This document shows, piece after piece, positions 5,011-54,864 of a stretch of DNA of 64,000 bases (its first letter is position 1; each line of letters opens with the position of its first letter). The position numbers and the translations under genes are program-made. Below the pieces are notes generated by a model, which worked only from the letters and a program-made list of their open reading frames with translations, searched no databases and was not told where the DNA came from. The DNA is from Ginglymostoma cirratum (taxonomy: Eukaryota): contig JAHRHZ010000267.1 of NCBI GenBank assembly GCA_024137785.1, forward strand, positions 56,891,245-56,955,244. The letters are read 5' to 3'.

Positions 5011-8000
5011 TTACTAAACTTTACTGAAACTTCTAAAAAAAATACTCAGTGTTATAAAATGAGGTGGGGGAGGGAATCTTAACCAATTTTCCCTTTATAA
5101 TCCTGGATTAATTCCTTGTGGAAAATTTGGAAATTCTGCTGAGGTTTGCGAAAGGAGGGACCATACGTTCCTATTGATTCTTAATCAGTATTGCGCTGTT
5201 CAAATGATCCACTTTTGCACTAAATTTCTGATGCTCTGTTTGCACTGCTTAATTCAAATCATTGAATAATTAGTGCAAACAAGACCTGGAGTTATCAGGA
5301 GTACATTACATTAAGTACATTTTAAAAGCAAAAAAAACAAAGAACTGTTATCATGTAATCAAGAGAATTACTATTTTATGCAGCAGTCTTTTCTGTTTGT
5401 GCTGTTTGTGTTTGGATGTCAGTGTTTGAATGTCATTCAGTGAATAAATTCTTTCTAAGTGCTGCTGTTTCAATATGAAACTGGGCAGCAGGTTCTTATT
5501 AGCATTGCCTTGGCTGAAGTCTTATTGCATTATAGATTGAAGGTCATAGTAACATACTCCAGCAAAATGCAATTGTTGTAATACCAATAACTTGGGTGAT
5601 TCAGTCATAGTACTGAGGGTTTCTTGGGTGGAAAGGTGCATGGATACTGTATGTAGTTAAAATAACATTGTCTTTTTAAAAGTACTGGATAGGATACAAG
5701 AAACTGCTTAGTATCTGATTTATCTCCTTCTCTGTTTGTCTCTCATTTTCTTTGTCTTTCTTTTACCACTACTTTTTTTTAGTAGCCTCCAGAATTTACT
5801 TCCCCTGTTGAGCTGTAAAAATGCATTCCTGGCATTTGTTTCACTTGGATTGTAGGAGACTGTAATCCAGACTGTAACTCTGTTTCCACTGCTGAATCTA
5901 GCTTTGTTTTTTGCTCCTGGAGCAGTAATGTGGTCTTGTAATGAAAAAACACTCAAGTGGGTCCTACTGATGTTAGCATTGGAGAATTGTACTTTATAAT
6001 GTAAACATGTCAGTGTAAAAATACTTTCAATATTATCCCCTTACCTTACGTCATCACAATGTTGACATTAACACTCATTGCATAGCTTTGTGTTTTAGCT
6101 AGCACTTCTCCAGAACCACAAAATTATGGGATTCATTTTTACCTCCAGTGCTTGTCTATTGAACGGACATAGTGAATGGTCTACATATAGCAGAACTTCC
6201 CTGGTTGTCATCCTACTGAAATACAAAACATATAATATCAATGAGGAGGAAGAGACCGGACGGCCCATTAACACTGTACTACACCATGGTGTAGTATCAT
6301 GAATTAACTCTTCCTTCCCATTCCACACTCCATGTGCTGCATGCTTCCAACAAATGTACATTGTGAAGATTAAGAGTATTGAGGCACTTCAGAGTAGAAC
6401 ATGGTGAATAGAGAAAAGATTATTTCAGTTGCACTTTGGTAATTTCCAATTTGAAATGTTTTACCCTTGGGCTGTACACCTAATATGTAATGTATTTTGT
6501 AAATAATAAGACCATTACATTCATGTTGCAAAGTTTTATATTTTCTTTAACAAATGTTATAACGTTTTTTTTTGGAGAAAAGGAGCAAAGCTGATGGTCC
6601 TAGGATACCATAAACAAATGAAATAAGAATCAAGTGGTACAAAGATGAGACAGGGCATTGATGTCCTGGATTCATGCCTAAGGTGTAAATTCCCTCAGTT
6701 CTTCCTTCCTCCTTTTGATAATCATTCTTGCAAACTGCCAACCTTCAGTGTCCCCCAGTCGCTACTCTGTACCTGCTTTATCTCATTTGTGTTATAGGCC
6801 TTGACATTTCATGTAATGTTAAATGGGGGAAGTATACTCAGGAGTGTTTATTATTGAAACATTCCTGCTAACCCATTAGTCCAAATGAATGGTCTGACAC
6901 CTGTGGTTTGAAATGATTAACCGCTAATGGAGTTCATTCAAAAACGACAAAAAAAATCACTAACTGTTTAAGGAACGTGGCCTCAGCATTAATGACTGCT
7001 GGTTCAGAAGCTGTTGTTTGACTAGCATTGCTCATAAAGGTATAAAATTGGTTCTTTGTGTTACTGAATGATTTAGTTGGACAACAGCACAGACCTGGAG
7101 ACTGAAGTTAATGCAAAACTACTGCTAGCACGAGTTTATCCAGAGACCAGGGGGAGTTAAAGGAATTGAATTGGGCTCAATGGTGTTTACCTTATACCAA
7201 AAAAATGATGTAACCAACGCATACAACTCCAATCAAATCAAAGTCTTGCAGCCAAATCCTTCTTTTGTTGAAGAACTCTGGGTGTATTGAAACATGCCTT
7301 GGCTATCCCTAAACATTCCATGACTCTTAAGAGCAAAGCATTTTTGATGGTGTTGCCATTTTGATGGTGATGGAAGTTCAGACCAGATGTCAGATTCTTT
7401 ATTTTTGAGCCCACTGATTCACAATCCAACGTGGTTTGTCCAATTTTGTGAAATGTTTGAAAAATGGAAGTGAAGATTTTTGGGTTCAATGCTGAAGAAT
7501 TTGTGGCTGGATCCGATTCCATCTCCCCTGGTTGAAACAGAGCAGGTTAACCTTTTGGAGTTCCAAATGCGTTTTGAAACTTGCACATGTTCGTTAACTG
7601 CTATTAAAAAAATCTTCCCGGTGAATTTAGACTGGGTTCATACTCTTGAACCCTACTACAAGGAGCAACAAATCCCTTGCATACTGTAAGAATCTGCAAC
7701 CTTTTCAAAGTGTGTTTACATTCCAACACTGGAATAATTGGTGAAAAAAATGACGTACCAACTTGATGCAAACTGATTCTGTGACTGCAAAAATTGAGAA
7801 GTGTGAGGAATTTTTCATCACCTAAGATATTCTATGCTTTTTGAAAGCCAGTTTCAAAAACATACTTCACAGCATAGCATCAGAACCCGAAACAAAAGGG
7901 TCTGTTTGCAGTTTGTCGATCATTATTTTCTTGGGTAGGACCCTCGAGCTTATTTTTGACAAGATTTGGCTATGATTCACTGTTATCTCTTCAAATACCA

Positions 8001-8870: not shown

Positions 8871-9524
8871 GTTTAACTTAATAGGAGTAAATTGGAGAGT
8901 TTTTCTGGTGGTTGATTCAGGAGCCACAAAAGGCACAGGAGATCTGAATTAAGATGGTCGGAAATGTCTGTTTGGATTGTCTGCCGAGATGATTGGTGCA
9001 AAGCCTTCTATTCTTGTTCACATTCAGTTCTTTGCATTCCATCCATCATGCCCAGGGAGCAACACGTTTGTTATTTGTGCAGGAAATCAGTTGGAATCAG
9101 CCATTTTACTATTTGTTATTTATCTGTTTTACAAGTCAGGTGTTTGACTTTTGCTATTTTTTCATTTAAAAAAACTGTTGCACCTTCAATTTCTTCCAGT
9201 AAATTGACTCCAATGAATGTTTAAGACAGCCTTGTTTTGTTGGTTTCTGAGATTGTCCACAGACAGTTGAATGACAGGGAAGTTTTTGAAATTCAGTGTT
9301 GATTAATATCAAGACTATTTTGACAGGCACGTGCACTTATGACTAGTTATTGCTGCTTTCATTTACCATAAGCCCATTTAAGATAAATTGCATATTTTTA
9401 ACCAGGTCCTTGTGTTTAAAAACTTTTGTTTTCAACCATGAGGCAAGAAAATACTGTTACTCGTTCTTATGTTTTTAATTATTAACTGCAGGTGACAGAT
9501 TTGGTTCAGTGAGAAATAATCATG

Positions 9525-10370
9525 CATAGAGTCACGGAAACAAACCCCTCGTCCCATTTGCCAGCATTTGGCCCATGTCCACCTAAACCCTTCCTATTCA
9601 TATACCCATCCAGATGCCGTATAAATGTTGTAATTGTACCGGCCTCCACCACTTCCTCTGGCAGCTCATTCCATACATGCACCACCCCCTGCATGAAAAA
9701 GTCGCTCCTTAGGTCCTTTTTAAATCGTTCCCCTCTCACATTAAGCCTCTGCCCTCTTGTTTTGGACTCCCCTTCCTTGGGCAAAAGTCCTTGACTATTC
9801 ACTCTATCTATGCCGCTCATGATTTTATAACCTTCTATTACGTCACTCCTCAGCATCCGACGCTCCAGGGAAAATAGCCCCAGCCTATTCAGCCTCTTCC
9901 TACAGTTTAAACCCTCCAACCTTGGCAACGTCCTTGTAAATCTTTTCTGAACCTTTTCAAGTTTCACAACATCTTTCCTATAGCAGGGAGGCCAGAACTG
10001 AACACAATATTCCAAAAGTGGTCCAACCAATGTCCTGTACAGCTGCGATATGACTTCCTAACTCCTATGGTCAATGCACTGACCAGTAAAGGCAAGCATA
10101 CCAAACGCCTTCTTCCACTATCCTGTCTACCTCTGACTCCACTTTCAAGGAACTATGAACCTGCACTCCAAGGTCTCTTTGTGCAGCAACACACCCCAGG
10201 ACCTTACCATTGAGTGTATAAGTCCTGCCCTGATTTGCCTTTCCAAAATGCAGCACCTCACATTTATCTAAATTAAACCCCATCTGCCACTCCTCAGCCC
10301 ATTCACCCATCTGATCAAGGTCCTGTTGTTATTTGACGTAAACCTCTTCGCTGTCCATGACACCACCTTA
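9525..10370 (-). mobile_element. CR1 LINE (HER1-like) 3' fragment with reverse-transcriptase C-terminal region
   Basis: Minus-strand ORFs read WAEEWQMGFNLDKCEVLHFGKAN, QRDLGVQVHSSLKV, PLLEYCVQFWPPCYRKDVVKLEKVQKRFTR, LGLFSLERRMLRSD and VVHVWNELPEEVVEAGTITTF, which is typical CR1 ORF2; frameshifted. Confidence 0.93.
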
Positions 10371-11583: not shown

Positions 11584-12213
11584 CAGGTAAAACAGTGATT
11601 TACTTGCACTTCACTCAATCTAATCTACGGTATTTGCTGCTCACAATGTGGTCTCCACTACATTGGGGAAACAAAGTGCAGACTGGGCAACTGCTTTTCA
11701 GAACACCTATGTTCTGTTTGCAAAAGTGACCCTGAGCTTCCAATTGCGTGCCACATCAACATACTGCTGTGTTCCCTGGTCAACATCTCTGTGTCAGGCT
11801 TACTACAGTGCTCCAGCGAAGCTCAGGGCAAGCTGGAAGAACACCACTTCACTTTTCACTTGGGAACCCTGCAACCCTCTGGACTCAAAGTCAAGTTCAA
11901 TAATTTTAGGGCCTGAGCACGATCTCCCATGTCTTTACCCCAACCCCACACACCAGGCTTTGTCATCACATGGGCTGCTAGCACAAACTAGCCATTGTCA
12001 GCCACTAACAATCTCCATTAGCAGCAATTCATACTCCCAGGCTGACCTCTACCCACTTCTTTGTCTACCCAACTGTTTTTCTCTCTCTTTGGGCTCCATC
12101 TCCATCTTCTTCACCCCTTCTCCAGCAATATATACCAACCTTTTCCCAACTTTTCTCACCACAGATGCTGTCTGACCTGCTGAGTTTTTCCAGCAATTTC
12201 TGCTTTTGTTCAG
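11584..12213 (+). mobile_element. Penelope-like element 3' fragment: GIY-YIG endonuclease plus pseudo-LTR
   Basis: Frame from 11584 reads QVKQ*FTCTSLNLIYGICCSQCGLHYIGETKCRLGNCFSEHL...LPIACHIN (IY..CxxC..YIGET); ends in cacagatgctgtctgacctgctgagtttttccagcaatttctg. Confidence 0.88.
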
Positions 12214-15400: not shown

Positions 15401-16097
15401 AGATGAATCAATATTTTTCAATATTTTTTAAAAAGTGGCAAGTTCTGGAAATCAGCCAAATGACAAGACTTAAGTTTCAAGTTGGAAGAGTACAACATTG
15501 AGGGGCAGAAACCTGTTTTGGGCAGTGCATGATATTGTGTGCAAATTATTTCATTTCGATCTGAAACGTTTCAAGTATTATTTCATGAAATGAAATAATA
15601 CTTGAAATGTTGCAGATCGAAGACAGAAATAAATCTTGAGCAGTGTCTCCTGGTGGAACTGTGTGGGAGTAACCACTCTTTAAAGCCTTGGTTATTATAA
15701 ATAACTGACATGGAACTCCTAAACTGTGTGACAAGTTAAATTCTGTAGTTTACTTACAAATAAAATCTCATGCCAGATGTTGAGAATCTGTACCGATATT
15801 GCACTTGTATCAGTGTTTTCCCTCTATCACCAGAATGCTCTTGTCCTTTCTGCAGTAAATAATCTAGGAAGAATTGAATCATTGGGATGTACTTGTGCTG
15901 AGCAATGATACCATAAACCTTGCAGCTGTAACCATTGAGACTTTCCAGAAAAATCTGGAATCATATTAACAAAAATCCACGCGCTTTGCTTTGAGGTAAA
16001 ACTCTGTGGAATTTTGTTTTCCCAGCAGATCAGGAATAGCCCAGTGAGCGGTGGCTAGTGTAACTGCAGCAGATGGGAGAATGAGACCGGAGAGAGT

Positions 16098-22944: not shown

Positions 22945-23267
22945 TCATAGAATTCCTCGGGGCTATTTGGCCCATCAGGTCTGCACTGATGCCCCTGCCC
23001 AAAAAGGATCCCACCCAGATCCGCACCCCATCACCATAACCCTGCATTTCCATGAATAATCCACTTAGCCTGCACATCCCTGGACACTACAGGGCCCTTT
23101 AACATGGCCAATCCACCTAACCAGCACATCTTTGGACTAGGGAGGAAACCCACACCGACACAGGGAGAATGCACAAATTCCACACAGATAGTCATCCAAA
23201 GTTAGAATCAAACCCAGATCTCTAGCACTGTGAGACAGCAGTGCTAACCACTGAGCCACCCTGCTGC
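22945..23267 (-). mobile_element. HE1-type V-SINE, full length
   Basis: Reverse complement of the 18349 element: tcatagaattcc...catggccaatccacctaacc...cagtgctaaccactgagccacc. Confidence 0.85.
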
Positions 23268-23653
23268 TACTTTATCTTCTTCAGAAAGTGCAGAGGAGCA
23301 CAGCGCCTCAAAACAAGCAACTAGAAGTGTAATCCAGTTCCATTGTTACTGCAGTGGTTAAGTTGTCCCACATTGTTTTTTATGTGCCAGGATACTTTCA
23401 GAATCACTGTGAGCTGAACATGCAGTGTCAGCAATGTACACGTTCAGGGTCGTAGTGAATTTATTGGAAATCACTGTGACACTGCCAAAGTAACTCGCTT
23501 GTGTCTGCTTTGTTTGTGATGTCTGTAGCAGCACTCAGTTACTGCAAATAGTCATTCATTAGACCTTGTGTACAATACTCTCTTGCACATCCTCTAACGT
23601 ACTTGGATAACATGGCTAATGCCAGAGTTTTAACCAACTTGTGTCTCAGATAA

Positions 23654-23845
23654 AAACTTAAAGAACTGCAGATGCTAGAAATCAGAAAGGAAAACAGAAA
23701 TTGCTGGAAAAGCTCAGCAGGTCTGGCAGCCTCTGTGGAGAGAAATCAGAGTTAACATTTCGGGTCTAGTGACCATTCTTCAGATCTCCCCCCACAGAGG
23801 CTGCCAGACCTGCTGAGCTTTTCCAGCAATCTCAATTTTTGTTTC
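23654..23845. mobile_element. Short fold-back element derived from Penelope pseudo-LTR, with target-site duplication
   Basis: Perfect inverted arms attgctggaaaagctcagcaggtctggcagcctctgtgg / ccacagaggctgccagacctgctgagcttttccagcaat; flanked by tgtgtctcagataa (23640-23653) and tgtgtttcagataa (23846-23859). Confidence 0.8.
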
Positions 23846-24319
23846 TGTGTTTCAGATAACTATTTTTATGGTTTCGCCTTCAACATGGTATGCTTGAAAG
23901 TTGTTCCTCTTAAATTTTGCTTTTTTCTCCAAAGCCTTAAAATAGCTAAACTTCAGGTGGATCTCTATGTCTCACTCCTCCATAGCTAACTGCACAATAA
24001 TTATCTGCTTGGCACTATACAACTCTGAGGTGCCTCAAGTCCAGGTTCTGAACCAAAAATTCCACCCTACAGGACAAGTATGTGAACACCAACAAACCTG
24101 GAAAACAGAACATGAGCAGGCAAACAGTATTACAGCAACGCTGTTAGGTCCTAAGTCTGACCTCTCACAGCTGGGATGCAACTTGGGAAAGGGAGAGATG
24201 CATTTAACTTCCATTTGTACCTTTGTGGACGGTATTAATGTTCGATGTATTGTTTCTTTGTTTGTAAGTCCTGAAGAGATAATTTTTGCATGAAATGTTA
24301 TTAGCAAACTAGGTTGAAA

Positions 24320-30574: not shown

Positions 30575-31132
30575 CACTCATAGGCATTGCTGGGTGGGCC
30601 AGTATATAGTGCCCATCCTTAGTTGCCCTTGAGAAAATGGTGATGAGCTGCCTCCTAGAACCACTGCGGTCCACGTGCTGTAGGTTGACCCACAATGCCA
30701 TTAGGAAGAGAAATTCAGGATTTTGACCCAGTAGCAGTGAACAAACGGCAATATATTTCCAAGTTAGGAAGGCAAGTGACTTGGACGGGAACTTGCAGGG
30801 GGTAGTGTCTCATGTATCTGCTGTTTTTGACCTTCTCTGATTGTTTGAGCGAGAAATCAAGCTGACATTTCAATGTTGTACTGAGGGAATCTTGCACTGC
30901 AGGAGGTGCTGTCCTTTGGGTGAGATGTTCAAATGGACACAAGATTCCATGGTACTATAAGCTGGGTGAAAATCCTGGAATTTGTTCCCTGTTGGGATTG
31001 TGGGTATACCTATAGCACGTAAACTGCAGCAGATCAACAAGACAGCTCACCAACACCTTGTCAAGCACAACCAGGGACAGGCAATAAATGCTGGCCCAGC
31101 CAGCAATGTCCACATCCCTTGAATGAATAATA
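30575..31132. mobile_element. Composite of LINE 3' fragments in both orientations around a Deu-SINE piece (30860-30960)
   Basis: gcccatccttagttgcccttgagaaaatggtgatgagc (-); tgtactgagggaatcttgcactg (SINE); aaatcctggaatt...gcaataaatgctggcccagccagc (+). Confidence 0.55.
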
Positions 31133-34469: not shown

Positions 34470-34710
34470 TTCTCCAAGCTTTTTGTTTTGCACTCATCAG
34501 GACAATTTGCAAGAATACCAATGTAACCAGAAAACCAACATTTACACTGAAAGAATGCTAATTGGATAGGAAATGGATTCTGATGAGTAGAGGCATTGCT
34601 ATGAGAATGCAAGAAAGTTAATGATGGTGATAGTCCTTAACTGCTGCATTCTTTATGGTAATGCCTCCAGCCATCAGACTCCACTTCCCAATCAATTAGC
34701 ACTTCCCTCT
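34470..34710. repeat. Fold-back element with about 56-nt imperfect inverted arms and an adjacent decayed hammerhead-like motif
   Basis: Arms 34556-34611 (tgctaattggataggaaatggattctgatgagtagaggcattgctatgagaatgca) and 34645-34701 (tgcattctttatggtaatgcctccagccatcagactccacttcccaatcaattagca); minus strand 34475-34505 reads ttgtc-CTGATGA-gtgcaaaac-aaaaagctt. Confidence 0.65.
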
Positions 34711-34809: not shown

Positions 34810-35078
34810 AACAGAGAAAATATCGAGAATGCTGGAGAACCTCAGCAAATCTAGCAGCATCTCTGTTAGAGACAGATACAGAGTTAATGTTTTGAGTCTA
34901 GTCTAACTTTTCATCAAAACTAACTCAGTTCAGAGTGAACAGGCTTCAGTTCTGAAGGCATCATACCAGACTCAAAATATTAACTCTGTTTCTCACTCTG
35001 CAAACACTGCCAGATTTGTTGAGTTTCTTCAGTGTTCTCTATGTTTGTTTCAGACTTCCAACACCCAGTATTTTGCCC
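34810..35078. mobile_element. Fold-back element made of two inverted Penelope-type pseudo-LTR ends
   Basis: gaatgctggagaacctcagcaaatctagcagc...cagagttaatgttttgagtct versus agactcaaaatattaactctg...ctgccagatttgttgagtttcttcagtgttc. Confidence 0.75.
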
Positions 35079-37458: not shown

Positions 37459-37736
37459 TTATTGTTTGCAGAGAGAAGCAACAATGATAGATATAAATCC
37501 CAGACAATGCACTGATAAAGGATTTAACCTGTGAGGATGAGAAGGTCTGATAAATCCTTCCAATGGATCATTGAAAGTCACGATCACTGGAAAGTCAGTA
37601 TGCAGTGGGATCATCTTTTCAACCAATTTGGGATGTGGGGATGGATAATGAAGCCTCCTTTTGATTGTGTGTGGGACATTTATTCTTCCCCAGAGTTGGC
37701 GTAACCTGATGTCTTGTCCTTTCTCATTTCTTTCAG

Positions 37737-39119
37737 CTCCAAGGATCAATAAAGAGGAAGTTGGAAAGCAACGGCTCACCTGCCAGTCACGACAAAATCA
37801 ATGATCTGTCGGATGGCACGTTCTCGGGCGAGGTTAAAAGGATCTGTCTTGACGATGTCAGTCTTCCGATGGGTCAGGGCGATGCCTCCAGCGTCCTTCG
37901 CCCCGATGTGCAAAGCTCCTCACTTCCAATTGGGCACCGCAGCCAGGCCCTGCAGACTCCTGCCTCCATGGGCCCCTCTTTAGGTTGTGTAGCCCCGGGC
38001 ACCAATGCGGGCCTCATGGGCAGCAACCAAGCCAACGGGAATGACATTAGCTCACAATTTGCGGTGACATCCAATGCGGAGATGAAACCCAGCGTGGGGG
38101 ATGGTCACAGCATGTTCTCGTTTGACTCCAAGGGGGTGAACAATATGCAAACGATGGATCAGGACTTGGAGGACCTTCTGGAGGAGTTGACAAACATGCC
38201 GAATCCTCCCCTCAACGAACTCGACCTTTTGACCAACAGGAACGACCCGCTGAACCTGGGCCTCGTGCAGACAAGTCAGGGCAACACTCGAAAGCCATCG
38301 CCTCAGGCGGCCTCCCATCTGGAGAACGCCATACCCAGCCGAGAGTTTTCTCCCATTTACAGTCAGGCGCCGGCAGGATCCCCCCAGCGAAGGCCCCCGT
38401 CGACAGGTACCTCATATCCGTTACCGGCGCCGCCCAACCCCATGCCACTGCCTATGTCTTCGACGTCACAAAACCAAGGGACGAACCAGGCCCAGCCGCC
38501 ATTGCTGTCCAGCACCAGCGCTAACCGAGTTGGGACCAACTGGCACGAACTGTCGCACGCTCAGCAGTTGAAGAAGATAGCGGCGAGCCAGCATCAGCGT
38601 TCTGTCACCCAGCAGTCACACCCGCAGCAGGGCCAGGCGGCCAACTGGCCCCCGGTGGCTTCCTCCGGGCCTTCCCCGCCCTACCAGCCGGACAAGTTGC
38701 CGAGCCCCTCCCTGCACCAGCAGCCGTTCAGCCCCCCGAGCGCCATACTGCCCAGCATCCCCGCGTCGAGCGGCACAATGCAGAGTTACCTGTACAACAA
38801 GGCGCCGTCCAGCCAGTCCAACCGCATCCCCATGATGGTGCAGCAGCCGGCTGGCCTGAGCCAGGGTCCGGTGACTGACAACTCCCTGCCTTCCGAGCAG
38901 CTCTCGTTCAGCAACACCAAGCCGCTGTCGCACTTTGACCCTGACCTACCTGCTCAGAAGATGCCGCAGGTGGCAGGGGCTCAGAGCCAGCCCTCGGTGG
39001 TGCATTACATGCAAAGGTCCGCCGCAGCCGCTCAGCAGCCGACACCCCTGCAGCTACAATTTCGAAACAAGCTACGAATGCACCAGATGAGACTTCAGGG
39101 CGGCCTTCAGCAGTCATCG
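37737..39119 (+). CDS. MAMLD1: Large internal coding exon (equivalent to MAML exon 2) of a Mastermind-like transcriptional coactivator, most likely MAMLD1; 461 codons, phase 0/0
   Basis: Polypyrimidine tract and acceptor ttctcatttctttcag|CTC at 37736/37737; donor TCG|gtaaga at 39119/39120. Open frame LQGSIKRKLESNG...QQSS. Motifs recalled from MAML2/MAMLD1: LQGSxKRK, KRICLDDVSLPMG, DQDLEDLLEELTN..P..NELDL, WHELSHAQQLKKIAAS, GPSPPYQPDKLPSP, LSFSNTKPLSHF..QKMP..QPSVVHY. KRICLDDVSL, NGN..SQF, SHLEN, GPSPPY..KL and FSNTKPLSHF fit MAMLD1 better than MAML2. GC and CpG are clearly higher than in the flanking intron. Confidence 0.85.
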
Positions 39120-39207
39120 GTAAGAGTTTTCTAAAAAGGAACGGCTGACGCAATGGCTTTCATGTTTCTTTGAACCTGTCAAAGGCGAGTTCTTGCGCGA
39201 GCAAGTT

Positions 39208-39590
39208 ACTGCAGAGGCTGGAATCTGTACTGGAAACAAAAAAGTGCTGGAGATCACAGCGGGTCAGGCAGCGTCCATGGAGACAGCAAGCTAACGCTTC
39301 GAGACTTGACGACTTCAGAGCTAGAATGAAGTGTGTTTGTGGAGGTGGGGTGGGAGTGCTGGGGGAGAAAGCATGTTGATCGTTCAGATTAAGTGATCAG
39401 AATGTGAGAATCTGAATGTCAACATCCTTTCTTCCCCCAGCGCGCGCACACCCCCACCACAGCTCCCCCGCGCAACACCACTGATGAATAGTGAGATGCT
39501 GATGAATAGTCATCTAGACTCAAAACATTAGATTGCTTTTTATCCGTGGATGCTGCCTGATCCAGTGATCTCCAGCATTTCTTTGGTTTG
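39208..39590. mobile_element. Fold-back Penelope-derived element immediately downstream of the exon
   Basis: Outer arms 39234-39281 / 39543-39589 (tgctggagatcac...tcaggcagc.tcca.gga / tccgtggatgctgcctga...gtgatctccagca); inner arms 39344-39390 / 39409-39460 (gctgggggagaaagcatgttga..ttcagatt / aatctgaatgtcaacatcctttcttcccccagc). Confidence 0.8.
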
Positions 39591-53395: not shown

Positions 53396-53852
53396 CCAAG
53401 CTGTTGCAAGCATAAACCCTGAGCTCCATTTTTCTCATTAAGGAGCTTGTGTGGGGATGAAACCAGATAAACAGAGGAAAAGGAACAACCACCGCCTCCA
53501 ACCTCATCGTTCCCCAACCCCGCACCGCCCGCTTCTATCTCCTCCCCAAAATCCACAAACCTGAATGCCCTGGTCGACCCATTGTCTCCGCCTGCTCCTG
53601 CCCCACCGAACTCATCTCCACCTACCTAGACTCCATTTTCACCCCCTTGGTCCAGGAACTCCCTCCCTACGTCCGTGACACCACCCACGCCCTCCACCTC
53701 CTCCAGAACTTCCAATTCCCAGGTCCCCAACACCTCATTTTTACTATGGACGTCCAGTCCCTATATACCTGTATTCCCCATGCCGATGGCCTAAAGGCCC
53801 TCCGCTTCTTCCTGTCCCGCAGAACGGACCAATCCCCCCTCCACCGACACCC

Positions 53853-54252
53853 NNNNNNNNNNNNNNNNNNNNNNNNNNNNNNNNNNNNNNNNNNNNNNNN
53901 NNNNNNNNNNNNNNNNNNNNNNNNNNNNNNNNNNNNNNNNNNNNNNNNNNNNNNNNNNNNNNNNNNNNNNNNNNNNNNNNNNNNNNNNNNNNNNNNNNNN
54001 NNNNNNNNNNNNNNNNNNNNNNNNNNNNNNNNNNNNNNNNNNNNNNNNNNNNNNNNNNNNNNNNNNNNNNNNNNNNNNNNNNNNNNNNNNNNNNNNNNNN
54101 NNNNNNNNNNNNNNNNNNNNNNNNNNNNNNNNNNNNNNNNNNNNNNNNNNNNNNNNNNNNNNNNNNNNNNNNNNNNNNNNNNNNNNNNNNNNNNNNNNNN
54201 NNNNNNNNNNNNNNNNNNNNNNNNNNNNNNNNNNNNNNNNNNNNNNNNNNNN
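53853..54252. other. Assembly gap (400 N)
   Basis: Run of N. Confidence 1.
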
Positions 54253-54297
54253 CTCCCCCTCTCTCCCTATTTATTTCAGAACCCTCTTCCCCTCCCC

Positions 54298-54335
54298 CAT
54301 TTCTGATGAAGGGTTTAGGCCCGAAACGTCAAGTT
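54298..54335 (+). ncRNA. Minimal type I hammerhead ribozyme motif in Penelope pseudo-LTR
   Basis: attt-CTGATGA(54303-54309)-a-gggt ttag gccc-GAAA-c-GTC(54328-54330)-aagt. Confidence 0.7.
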
Positions 54336-54864
54336 TTCCTGCTCCTATGATGCTGCTTGACCTGCTGTGTTCATCCAGCCCCATGCTTGTTATCTCTAAG
54401 CAGCATAGTATGCTGATGGGGTTAGACAAAGAGGGTTTATGGAGGTTCTTGTGGAATGTAAACAATGGTATGGACCAGTTGACTTGTGTAACATCTACTT
54501 TGCCAACTAGCTAAAGGTTTGTGTCTACAAATTACATGTTTACCTGATTCCTTCTAAACATTGCATGTGTGTTTACACATTTACTATGCTACAAGTGGTG
54601 TTGGCAACAATGAGGTTTGTGGGATCCCTCATTTACATAAAGAGAATCTGATTAGAAGTAGTTCACACGAATAGGATGATGTAGGTGCCAGTAAGACACA
54701 TGTATTGTAATCGGAATGAGGGGGATTCCCCTATGCTTTAACATAGTAATGTTTTTAAATTCCGATCAGCCCTTCACCCTTTCGCTCATAAAAACAGGTC
54801 TGTACATTGTACCGGAATCAAGTGGGTGATGATAAATTGCAGGAGTTCCCTGACTGGTTGGGCA

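What the first reader, a model, noticed from the sequence alone, without database searches (positions are those of the whole stretch)
23640..23859. Tiny hairpin element with a hammerhead core in its loop, a target-site duplication and co-varying arms
Seen: a ~190-bp insert with ~39-nt perfectly complementary arms (23700-23738 / 23792-23830). The spacer on the minus strand reads CTGAAGA-a-tggtc acta gaccc-GAAA-tgtt-aactctg, a CUGANGA/GAAA hammerhead core with probable CpG decay. The insert sits between 14-bp direct repeats (13/14 identical). Both arms carry gaggctgcc where other copies in this window have gatgctg(c/t), so the arms were copied from one template or homogenised. Known: Penelope-like elements carry minimal hammerheads in their pseudo-LTRs and often leave inverted termini. 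Inference: this is a one-step insertion. Together with three other fold-backs here, it may represent a class of non-autonomous, ribozyme-bearing hairpin retroelements (retrozyme-like) rather than DNA-transposon MITEs.
Basis: partly seen in the sequence, partly recalled or inferred. Interest (0 to 1): 0.7.

Follow-up and report, generated by a model that had tools for sequence, protein, structure and literature searches.

The report
Shark Penelope retrotransposon hairpin stub
This small DNA hairpin is real but largely ordinary: it is two head-to-head copies of the ribozyme-bearing end of a common Penelope-type jumping gene, likely stitched together once at the moment of insertion, and its ribozyme is predicted to be broken.

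Summary
In detail: 39/39 perfect arm core, 13/14 direct repeats, hammerhead core on the minus strand. The 192-bp insert is two inverted copies of the pseudo-LTR (pLTR) of a Penelope-like element (PLE). A 3.2-kb pLTR–ORF–pLTR parent exists in this genome. The long arm carries the hammerhead plus a 37-nt "tail"; the short arm lacks both. This inverted-pLTR, one-sided-tail layout is published for PLEs.

It is not a propagating hairpin. The 22 closest hairpins have 22 different junctions. The same junction occurs with the tail on either arm. No hairpin resolved at both ends had two tails.

Most family copies start 0–6 nt upstream of the hammerhead core, 29 nt below a TATA box at an initiator-like site. 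The ribozyme therefore likely sits in the loop because it begins the RNA. Best model: two cDNAs primed from both target nicks at two internal start sites, then joined by microhomology. This copy has three hammerhead lesions and is shared by four relatives; no empty site was seen. Such hairpins number roughly 10^5 per genome. The scan reported the same layout before, in this genome and others.

The parts
23640..23653 (+). Left copy of the 14-bp target-site duplication; its last 4 nt also match the element's end
23654..23686 (-). PLE 'tail' (37 nt counting the 4 nt shared with the duplication), present on this arm only
   Evidence: same two-end pattern in the parent family and as read-end peaks at 23660 and 23691 in four relatives (table 7)
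23687..23787 (-). Long arm: pLTR body from about the predicted transcription start to the tail-less end; 86-88% identical to both pLTRs of a full-length copy (L252)
23754..23783 (-). Minimal type I hammerhead core (CUGAAGA, bulged A, helix II, GAAA, UG-UU). Lesions: G10.1>U at 23775, C15.2>U at 23757; helix I mismatch at 23785 just outside. Predicted cut between 23754 and 23753.
23783..23788 (.). Inversion junction; two placements fit equally (3 mismatches each): a GA microhomology at 23783-23784, or the long arm running to 23787
   Evidence: sequence against the family reference
23788..23845 (+). Short arm: inverted, 5'-truncated, tail-less second copy of the pLTR
23700..23738 (+). Perfect 39-nt core of the left arm, including the G variant shared with the right arm (23731 / 23799)
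23792..23830 (+). Perfect 39-nt core of the right arm
23846..23859 (+). Right copy of the target-site duplication (13/14)

Best explanation
The insert is two head-to-head copies of the hammerhead-and-tail end of a Penelope-like retrotransposon, likely made in a single insertion event and likely unable to move or self-cleave now. Shown: the unit is the pLTR of an autonomous RT/GIY-YIG family; one arm has the tail and the other does not; junctions differ between loci; most short copies begin at the 5' edge of the hammerhead. Inferred mechanism: (1) a partial-tandem parent is transcribed from a TATA/initiator promoter whose +1 is the first base of hammerhead helix I. (2) The element's protein makes a staggered cut of about 14 nt and primes reverse transcription from both nicks, at the two internal start sites that bound the tail, on uncut RNA. 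(3) One cDNA (here the tailed one) runs off at or near the RNA's 5' end; the other stops after about 60 nt. (4) The two ends are joined through microhomology and repaired, giving duplication-tail-arm-hammerhead-arm-duplication. The hammerhead lies in the loop because it is the first thing in the RNA, not because a hairpin RNA is the mobile unit.
For: Parent: L252 has pLTR (2396-2520), ORF remnants and pLTR (5554-5662) over about 3.2 kb. Its RT hits PF00078 at E=1.4e-6, just under the curated cut-off. Its C-terminal piece is 58% identical to the GIY-YIG domain of a young sister family, which hits PF01541 above cut-off. Junctions: 22 distinct of 22 hairpins among the 30 best DNA hits, and 19 of 23 even in a set picked for short junctions. 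One tail: 21 of 22 top-hit hairpins have exactly one (1 eroded); in the junction-picked set 13 of 23 have one, 8 have an eroded arm, 2 have none, 0 have two. Young sister family: of 52 junction matches, 22 were resolved at both ends; 20 have one tail, 2 scored none (one runs into a gap, one is a partial tandem), 0 have two. Its duplications are mostly perfect 14-17-mers. The tail is on the short, loop-less arm in 19 of those 20, which a cDNA snap-back cannot give. The three other loci with this finding's junction type have the tail on the short arm in 2 and on the long arm in 1. Arms share derived bases 47 times, against a mean of 18 and a maximum of 34 in 2,000 shuffles. 5' ends: 7,667 exact core matches but only 1,264 with the 7 upstream bases. 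25 of 30 genome-order copies stop 0-7 nt upstream (4 scored long, 1 more is long by eye). TATAAA lies at -29 from the A of TCAGTT, with a TATAWA in 21 of 30 long copies; the sister family has TATTTAT at -31 and 5 of 21 copies stopping at -3 to -5, none between -6 and -22. Published in vitro support: a lizard PLE cuts and extends both strands, starts at two internal sites that bound the tail, is predicted dimeric and uses uncut RNA (PMC11167929).
Against: No empty site was seen, so the duplication is not proven by comparison. The transcription start is inferred from motifs and copy ends only. A cap-G test was inconclusive: 43 G, 45 A, 12 T among the first 100 of 1,067 matches, counted by hand, against 32/43/25% background, and confounded by microhomology. 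Arms are not always concordant. At reference position 74, 8 of 10 hairpins with a variant have it on one arm only; in the young family 3 of 7 cases at recurrent variant sites are one-sided. This copy's arms differ at positions 106 and 110, variants that other copies carry on both arms. The 39-nt perfect run is longer than scattered mismatches would give (P=0.002), so later arm-to-arm repair is possible. Hairpin sets were selected by similarity or junction pattern, not at random. Helix pairs are conserved (93% of cells paired) but show no two-sided covariation.
Confidence: 0.75

Rival explanations
1. Same element and same double priming, but copies start from the 3' pLTR and pile up at the hammerhead because reverse transcriptase stalls on its structure, or because a splice acceptor lies there, not because the RNA begins there.
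For: Long, variably truncated copies exist. A branch-point-like motif, a pyrimidine run and CAG lie just upstream. In D. virilis the intron end maps to the 5' end of helix I (PMC4209133).
Against: Ends lie upstream of the structured part, within about 7 nt, in two families, each with a TATA-like box about 30 nt away. By eye the 30 copies share no upstream exon.
Confidence: 0.12
2. Self-priming fold-back: a single cDNA, or an antisense RNA as proposed for rotifer PLEs, folds back at a microhomology and copies itself to make the second arm.
For: This copy has the tail on the loop-bearing arm, which fits. Arms share subfamily bases. Antisense self-priming is the published proposal (PMC3846280).
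Against: A copied arm cannot gain a tail that its template lacks, yet the tail is on the loop-less arm in 19 of 20 young hairpins and in 10 of 13 one-tailed junction-picked family hairpins. Some arms differ at recurrent variant sites. The antisense-RNA version is weakened, not excluded.
Confidence: 0.08
3. One reading: a non-autonomous, ribozyme-bearing hairpin RNA that propagates as a unit (retrozyme-like).
For: Hairpins are abundant (10 inverted pairs in 387.5 kb of sampled sequence). Some junctions recur, e.g. one 8-nt junction is the commonest among 87 young-family matches.
Against: Recurrent junctions are microhomologies and occur with either tail side. This junction type has only 3 other exact-pattern matches genome-wide against 7,667 cores. 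The stub lacks the upstream TATA. In the fold-back, helix I pairs have probability 0.00 and the helix III self-dimer is +0.8 kcal/mol against -3.5 for an intact copy. No tandem unit.
Confidence: 0.04
4. A MITE of a DNA transposon.
For: Short, non-coding, inverted repeats, flanking direct repeat.
Against: Arms are not terminal (one-sided tail), the duplication is 14 bp, interiors are not shared, and the sequence is the end of an RT/endonuclease element.
Confidence: 0.01

Closest known systems
Inverted-pLTR-plus-tail insertions of EN+ Penelope-like elements (Arkhipova et al. 2013, PMC3846280, passages; Craig et al. 2021, PMC8557442, passages)
   Same: Head-to-head inverted, 5'-truncated pLTR; a 30-40-nt tail at one end only; a target duplication around the whole; TATA and initiator motifs in the pLTR; microhomology junctions.
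   Different: Here both copies are so short that no ORF lies between them. The duplication is about 14 bp, against 8-10 bp in the rotifer examples read. The published proposal is antisense self-priming; the tail-side data here favour two primings.
PAc (Poseidon of Anolis carolinensis) in vitro system (Frangieh et al. 2024, PMC11167929, main text read)
   Same: Two RT start sites bounding the tail about 100-140 nt downstream of the hammerhead; both strands cut and extended; uncut RNA used as template.
   Different: The parts read do not model inverted insertions or map a transcription start; the link to hairpins is my inference. The clade of the shark family was not tested.
[quoted passage not shown]
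   Same: Extra base between positions 9 and 10.1, 4-bp helix I, no loop 3, palindromic 15.2-16.2; the paper also reports pairs of motifs on opposite strands 100-700 bp apart and mostly single truncated copies.
   Different: This copy has lost G10.1-C11.1 and the 15.2-16.2 palindrome; its helix II is 5 bp in the intact family.
Metazoan non-LTR retrozymes (Cervera and De la Pena 2020, PMC7229834, passages; Li et al. 2026 bioRxiv 10.64898/2026.07.22.740005, parts 1-2 of 5)
   Same: Non-coding, type I hammerhead, related to PLE pLTRs.
   Different: Retrozymes are tandem repeats with a ribozyme in each unit and give circular RNA. This is a single head-to-head insertion with one decayed motif.
L1 twin priming (recalled; seen only as the abstract of PMC2837659 in a search listing)
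   Same: Both target nicks prime cDNA; the result is an inverted, truncated insert within a duplication.
   Different: In L1 the two cDNAs cover adjacent, largely non-overlapping parts of the RNA (recalled). Here they overlap by about 60 nt and begin at two fixed sites.

Membership tests
EN+ Penelope-like element insertion | Sequence belongs to the pLTR of an element with an RT plus GIY-YIG ORF | tested here: met
   Long arm 86-88% to both pLTRs of L252; RT PF00078 E=1.4e-6, below cut-off; C-terminal piece has no Pfam hit itself but is 58% identical to a PF01541-positive sister domain
EN+ Penelope-like element insertion | Inverted 5'-truncated pLTR, head to head | tested here: met
EN+ Penelope-like element insertion | 30-40-nt tail at one end only | tested here: met
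   37 nt on the left arm only
EN+ Penelope-like element insertion | Target-site duplication | tested here: inconclusive
   13/14 repeat, 5 in 200,000 by chance, same length as in sister insertions; no empty site available
EN+ Penelope-like element insertion | Clade placement (Penelope/Poseidon, Neptune, other) | not tested
   No reference PLE proteins were fetched and no tree was built
Minimal type I hammerhead | Core boxes CUGANGA and GAAA, with a cleavage triplet | tested here: met
Minimal type I hammerhead | G10.1-C11.1 pair, helix I and palindromic 15.2-16.2 intact | tested here: not met
   Met in intact family copies such as L229; in this copy U-C, A-A and U-G
Minimal type I hammerhead | Compensatory covariation across copies | tested here: inconclusive
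   93% of 270 cells paired against 4-63% when slid, but 0 two-sided changes and no excess over shuffles; 49 sequences, 6 of 54 random hits left out as degenerate or gapped
Minimal type I hammerhead | Self-cleavage | not testable with these tools
   Needs an in vitro assay
Non-LTR retrozyme | Tandem head-to-tail units, each with a hammerhead | tested here: not met
   Self-comparison shows only the inverted copy
Non-LTR retrozyme | Propagates as a defined unit | tested here: not met
Non-LTR retrozyme | Expressed as circular RNA | not testable with these tools
   Only contigs of runs guessed to be RNA were available
MITE | Terminal inverted repeats at both ends and a shared interior | tested here: not met
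   One-sided tail, locus-specific centres

The most novel reading that the evidence does not exclude
The roughly 10^5 hairpin stubs are a fossil record that settles how PLEs make inverted pLTRs and tails: a dimeric RT-endonuclease primes from both target nicks at the two tail-bounding sites of the 5' pLTR, on uncut RNA and sometimes on two different RNA molecules, and runs off at a transcription start that coincides with the first base of hammerhead helix I.
Probability: 0.45. Interest if true: 0.55.

Novelty: new member of a known kind. Interest (0 to 1): 0.27.

Why it matters
The locus itself is one old, decayed insertion among very many. The class has some value. The literature read still calls the origin of PLE inverted repeats and tails undefined (PMC8557442). 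The strict one-tail rule, the tail side and the shared 5' end can be counted genome-wide and turn the 2024 in vitro results into testable in vivo predictions. Practically, such stubs are easily mis-annotated as MITEs or microRNA precursors (one search gave only sub-threshold hairpin hits), and young ones break assemblies.

Tried and rejected
Rfam found no hammerhead; all hits were sub-threshold generic hairpins.

The idea that the unit is a fixed-length SINE was rejected: long, variably truncated copies and a full-length parent exist.

The idea that arms begin at the hammerhead cut site was not supported. Short-arm starts spread over reference positions 39-80 with no pile-up at 52, and none of the 9 close inverted partners among 30 genome-order copies starts there.

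Apparent double hairpins about 430 bp apart are one palindrome assembled from both sides of a gap.

Empty site: not found. Four relatives carry the insert (left flank runs into it in 4 of 4 runs, right flank in 3 of 4).

No RNA holder is on record. One run guessed to be RNA covers both flanks without differences; this is no evidence on expression.

The cap-G test was inconclusive. A first junction pattern was too narrow and matched only this locus; it was widened. PDB gave no hit for the RT.

Host gene: the ORF at 37710-39134 looks like a mastermind-like exon from recall only. It has no Pfam hit, no MamL-1 exon was found on this contig and the Atlas was unavailable, so an intronic position is unproven.

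Six paper searches listed no title on shark PLE mini-hairpins or on a start site at helix I. Repbase and Dfam could not be searched. I opened no supplements; those of PMC4209133, PMC11167929 and the 2026 preprint (closed) may list shark elements.

Full report
1. Observation. The sequence is as described. The arms 23700-23738 and 23792-23830 are 39/39 complementary, inside a 68-nt inverted repeat with 9 mismatches. The minus strand folds at z = -14.75. The 14-bp repeats match at 13 positions; 5 of 200,000 random boundary pairs do as well. The hammerhead core begins at 23783 on the minus strand. Both arms read GAGGCTGCC, and the 5 other window copies matching the motif read GATGCTG. Rfam does not recognise the core.

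2. What the unit is. An own-genome search gave 5,052 candidates, of which 40 were scored. Among the 30 best loci, 22 are hairpins, 7 are single copies and 1 is a head-to-head pair of two subfamilies that I left out of the counts. Copies that reach further upstream share up to 1.5 kb. One locus, L252, is a whole element: pLTR, ORF remnants and pLTR over about 3.2 kb. L253 is a near-whole copy with an inverted pLTR at its 5' end. The finding's long arm is 86-88% identical to both pLTRs of L252. The ORF has an RT domain (PF00078, E=1.4e-6, just under cut-off). Its C-terminal piece is 58% identical to the GIY-YIG domain of a young sister family. That sister family has one copy in this window (53461-54400) and at least 150 copies at 99-100% protein identity. 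The unit is therefore the pLTR of a Penelope-like element. That the host is a shark rests on recall and on earlier AI notes, not on a call of mine.

3. Anatomy. Against a 155-nt reference, the long arm covers positions 18-155 and the short arm about 58/63-120. The 37 nt beyond position 118 are the tail. Two 3' ends recur in the parent family, in the sister family and as read-end peaks in four related species. The junction can be placed at a GA microhomology or 4 nt further on, each with 3 mismatches. The long arm differs from the reference at 9 of 138 sites.

4. Is the hairpin a travelling unit? No. All 22 top-hit hairpins have different junction coordinates, and 19 of 23 differ even in a set chosen for short junctions (7 of those 30 loci were not clean hairpins and were dropped). 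Only 3 other loci match this junction type exactly. Two of them carry the tail on the short arm, the opposite of this finding, and none has the G variant. In the young family, 87 short-junction hairpins were found and 50 loci examined, giving 52 matches. Of 22 resolved at both ends, 20 have exactly one tail, none has two, and 19 have it on the loop-less arm. The commonest junction occurs with either tail side. Duplications there are mostly perfect 14-17-mers. In 80 stretches taken at round coordinates (387,505 readable bases), the profile found 88 hits, among them 10 close inverted pairs counted by eye. That is about one per 39 kb, or roughly 10^5 genome-wide for all related families; this is a rough figure, since over half the sampled bases were masked.

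5. The arms. Across 45 hairpins the arms share derived bases 47 times, against 18 on average and 34 at most in 2,000 shuffles, so both arms come from the same source subfamily. Concordance is incomplete: 4 shared against 3 one-sided cases at recurrent sites in the young family, and 2 against 8 at position 74 in this family (biased by the query). This copy shares the rare G (about 3% of depth in relatives) but differs at positions 106 and 110. Its mismatches cluster at the arm ends (P=0.002 for a 39-nt perfect run), and 3 of the other 44 hairpins have runs as long. One template, two templates from one source, and later arm-to-arm repair cannot be separated with these numbers.

6. Why the hammerhead is in the loop. 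The genome holds 7,667 exact matches to the family core but only 1,264 that also carry the 7 upstream bases. Of the first 30 in genome order, 25 stop 0-7 nt upstream of the core and 9 have an inverted partner within 100 nt. In long copies a TATAAA lies 29 nt before the A of TCAGTT, which is also the first base of helix I. The sister family has a TATA-like box at -31 and the same two-peaked pattern, with 5 of 21 copies stopping at -3 to -5. I read these stubs as run-off copies of the RNA's 5' end. The copies span the predicted cut site, so their template was uncut.

7. The ribozyme. Intact family copies form a 4-bp helix I and a 5-bp helix II and have a self-complementary AACGUU for dimer helix III (-3.5 kcal/mol). 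This copy has U-C at 10.1-11.1, an A-A mismatch in helix I and AAUGUU (+0.8 kcal/mol). In the whole fold-back, helix I pairs have probability 0.00. Helix I is also rare in isolated intact monomers (at most 0.04), so this last number alone does not discriminate. Across 49 copies the helices are 93% paired but show no two-sided covariation. The copy is predicted inactive.

8. Age and context. Contigs from four related organisms run from unique flank into the insert (left side 4 of 4 runs, right side 3 of 4), with flank differences of roughly 3-12%. The insertion is therefore older than those splits, and no empty site was seen. A position in an intron of a mastermind-like gene is possible but unproven.

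9. Comparison with what is known. Inverted 5'-truncated pLTRs with a one-sided 30-40-nt tail and a flanking duplication are described as typical of PLEs (PMC3846280; PMC8557442; passages read). Minimal hammerheads in pLTRs, including opposite-strand pairs, are described in PMC4209133. Two internal RT starts, cutting and extension of both strands and use of uncut RNA are shown in vitro in PMC11167929. D. virilis structures were seen as passages of PMC2377424. Retrozymes are defined as tandem repeats (PMC7229834; 2026 preprint), which this is not. The scan's index holds 149 notes with these words in at least 15 genomes, one listed from this genome; none lies near this locus.

10. Verdict. A real, old, probably dead Penelope stub in a known layout: new member of a known kind, interest 0.27. 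What remains of interest is the use of such stubs as a record of the PLE insertion mechanism.

Noticed in passing
window 53461-54400: Young Penelope-like element (RT ORF across a 400-N gap, intact minimal hammerhead at 54303, tail-less end). At least 150 genomic copies at 99-100% protein identity, so the family is probably recently active.
   Followed up: yes
window 34810-35068 and 39205-39581: Two older pLTR hairpins of related families, each with the tail on one arm only; no clear duplication recovered.
   Followed up: partly
window 11600-12210: Old 5'-truncated PLE with a GIY-YIG C-terminus and a tail-less 3' end; the hammerhead segment seems deleted.
   Followed up: partly
window 34556-34701: Fold-back with 47-nt arms containing a CTGATGAG...GAAA core at 34580; no match to the pLTR profile, possibly an unrelated PLE family.
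   Followed up: no
window 30585-31108 and 15555-15621: Inverted repeats (147-nt arms at 74%; 32-nt arms with a 3-nt loop and a GAAACGTT motif) that do not match the pLTR profile.
   Followed up: no
window 37710-39134 (+): 474-aa Q/P/S-rich open frame that looks from recall like a mastermind-like (MAML) exon; no Pfam hit, and no MamL-1 domain found on this contig.
   Followed up: partly
window 23200-23270: Very high-copy short repeat (millions of summed depth), probably a SINE fragment.
   Followed up: no
window 9506-10057 (-): Frame resembling the RT C-terminus of a CR1/L2-type LINE (recall; no Pfam hit).
   Followed up: no
L117/L118, L141, L142: Young perfect hairpins are assembled twice around an N gap, with the loop on both sides; many young hairpins have an N gap in one arm.
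   Followed up: yes
L252:1-6001: Full-length decayed family copy (pLTR-ORF-pLTR, about 3.2 kb), with an unrelated palindrome of about 400 bp just upstream.
   Followed up: partly
L092-L160 (young family hairpins): Target duplications often begin or end with letters that also match the element's end, hinting at short primer-template pairing; not quantified.
   Followed up: no
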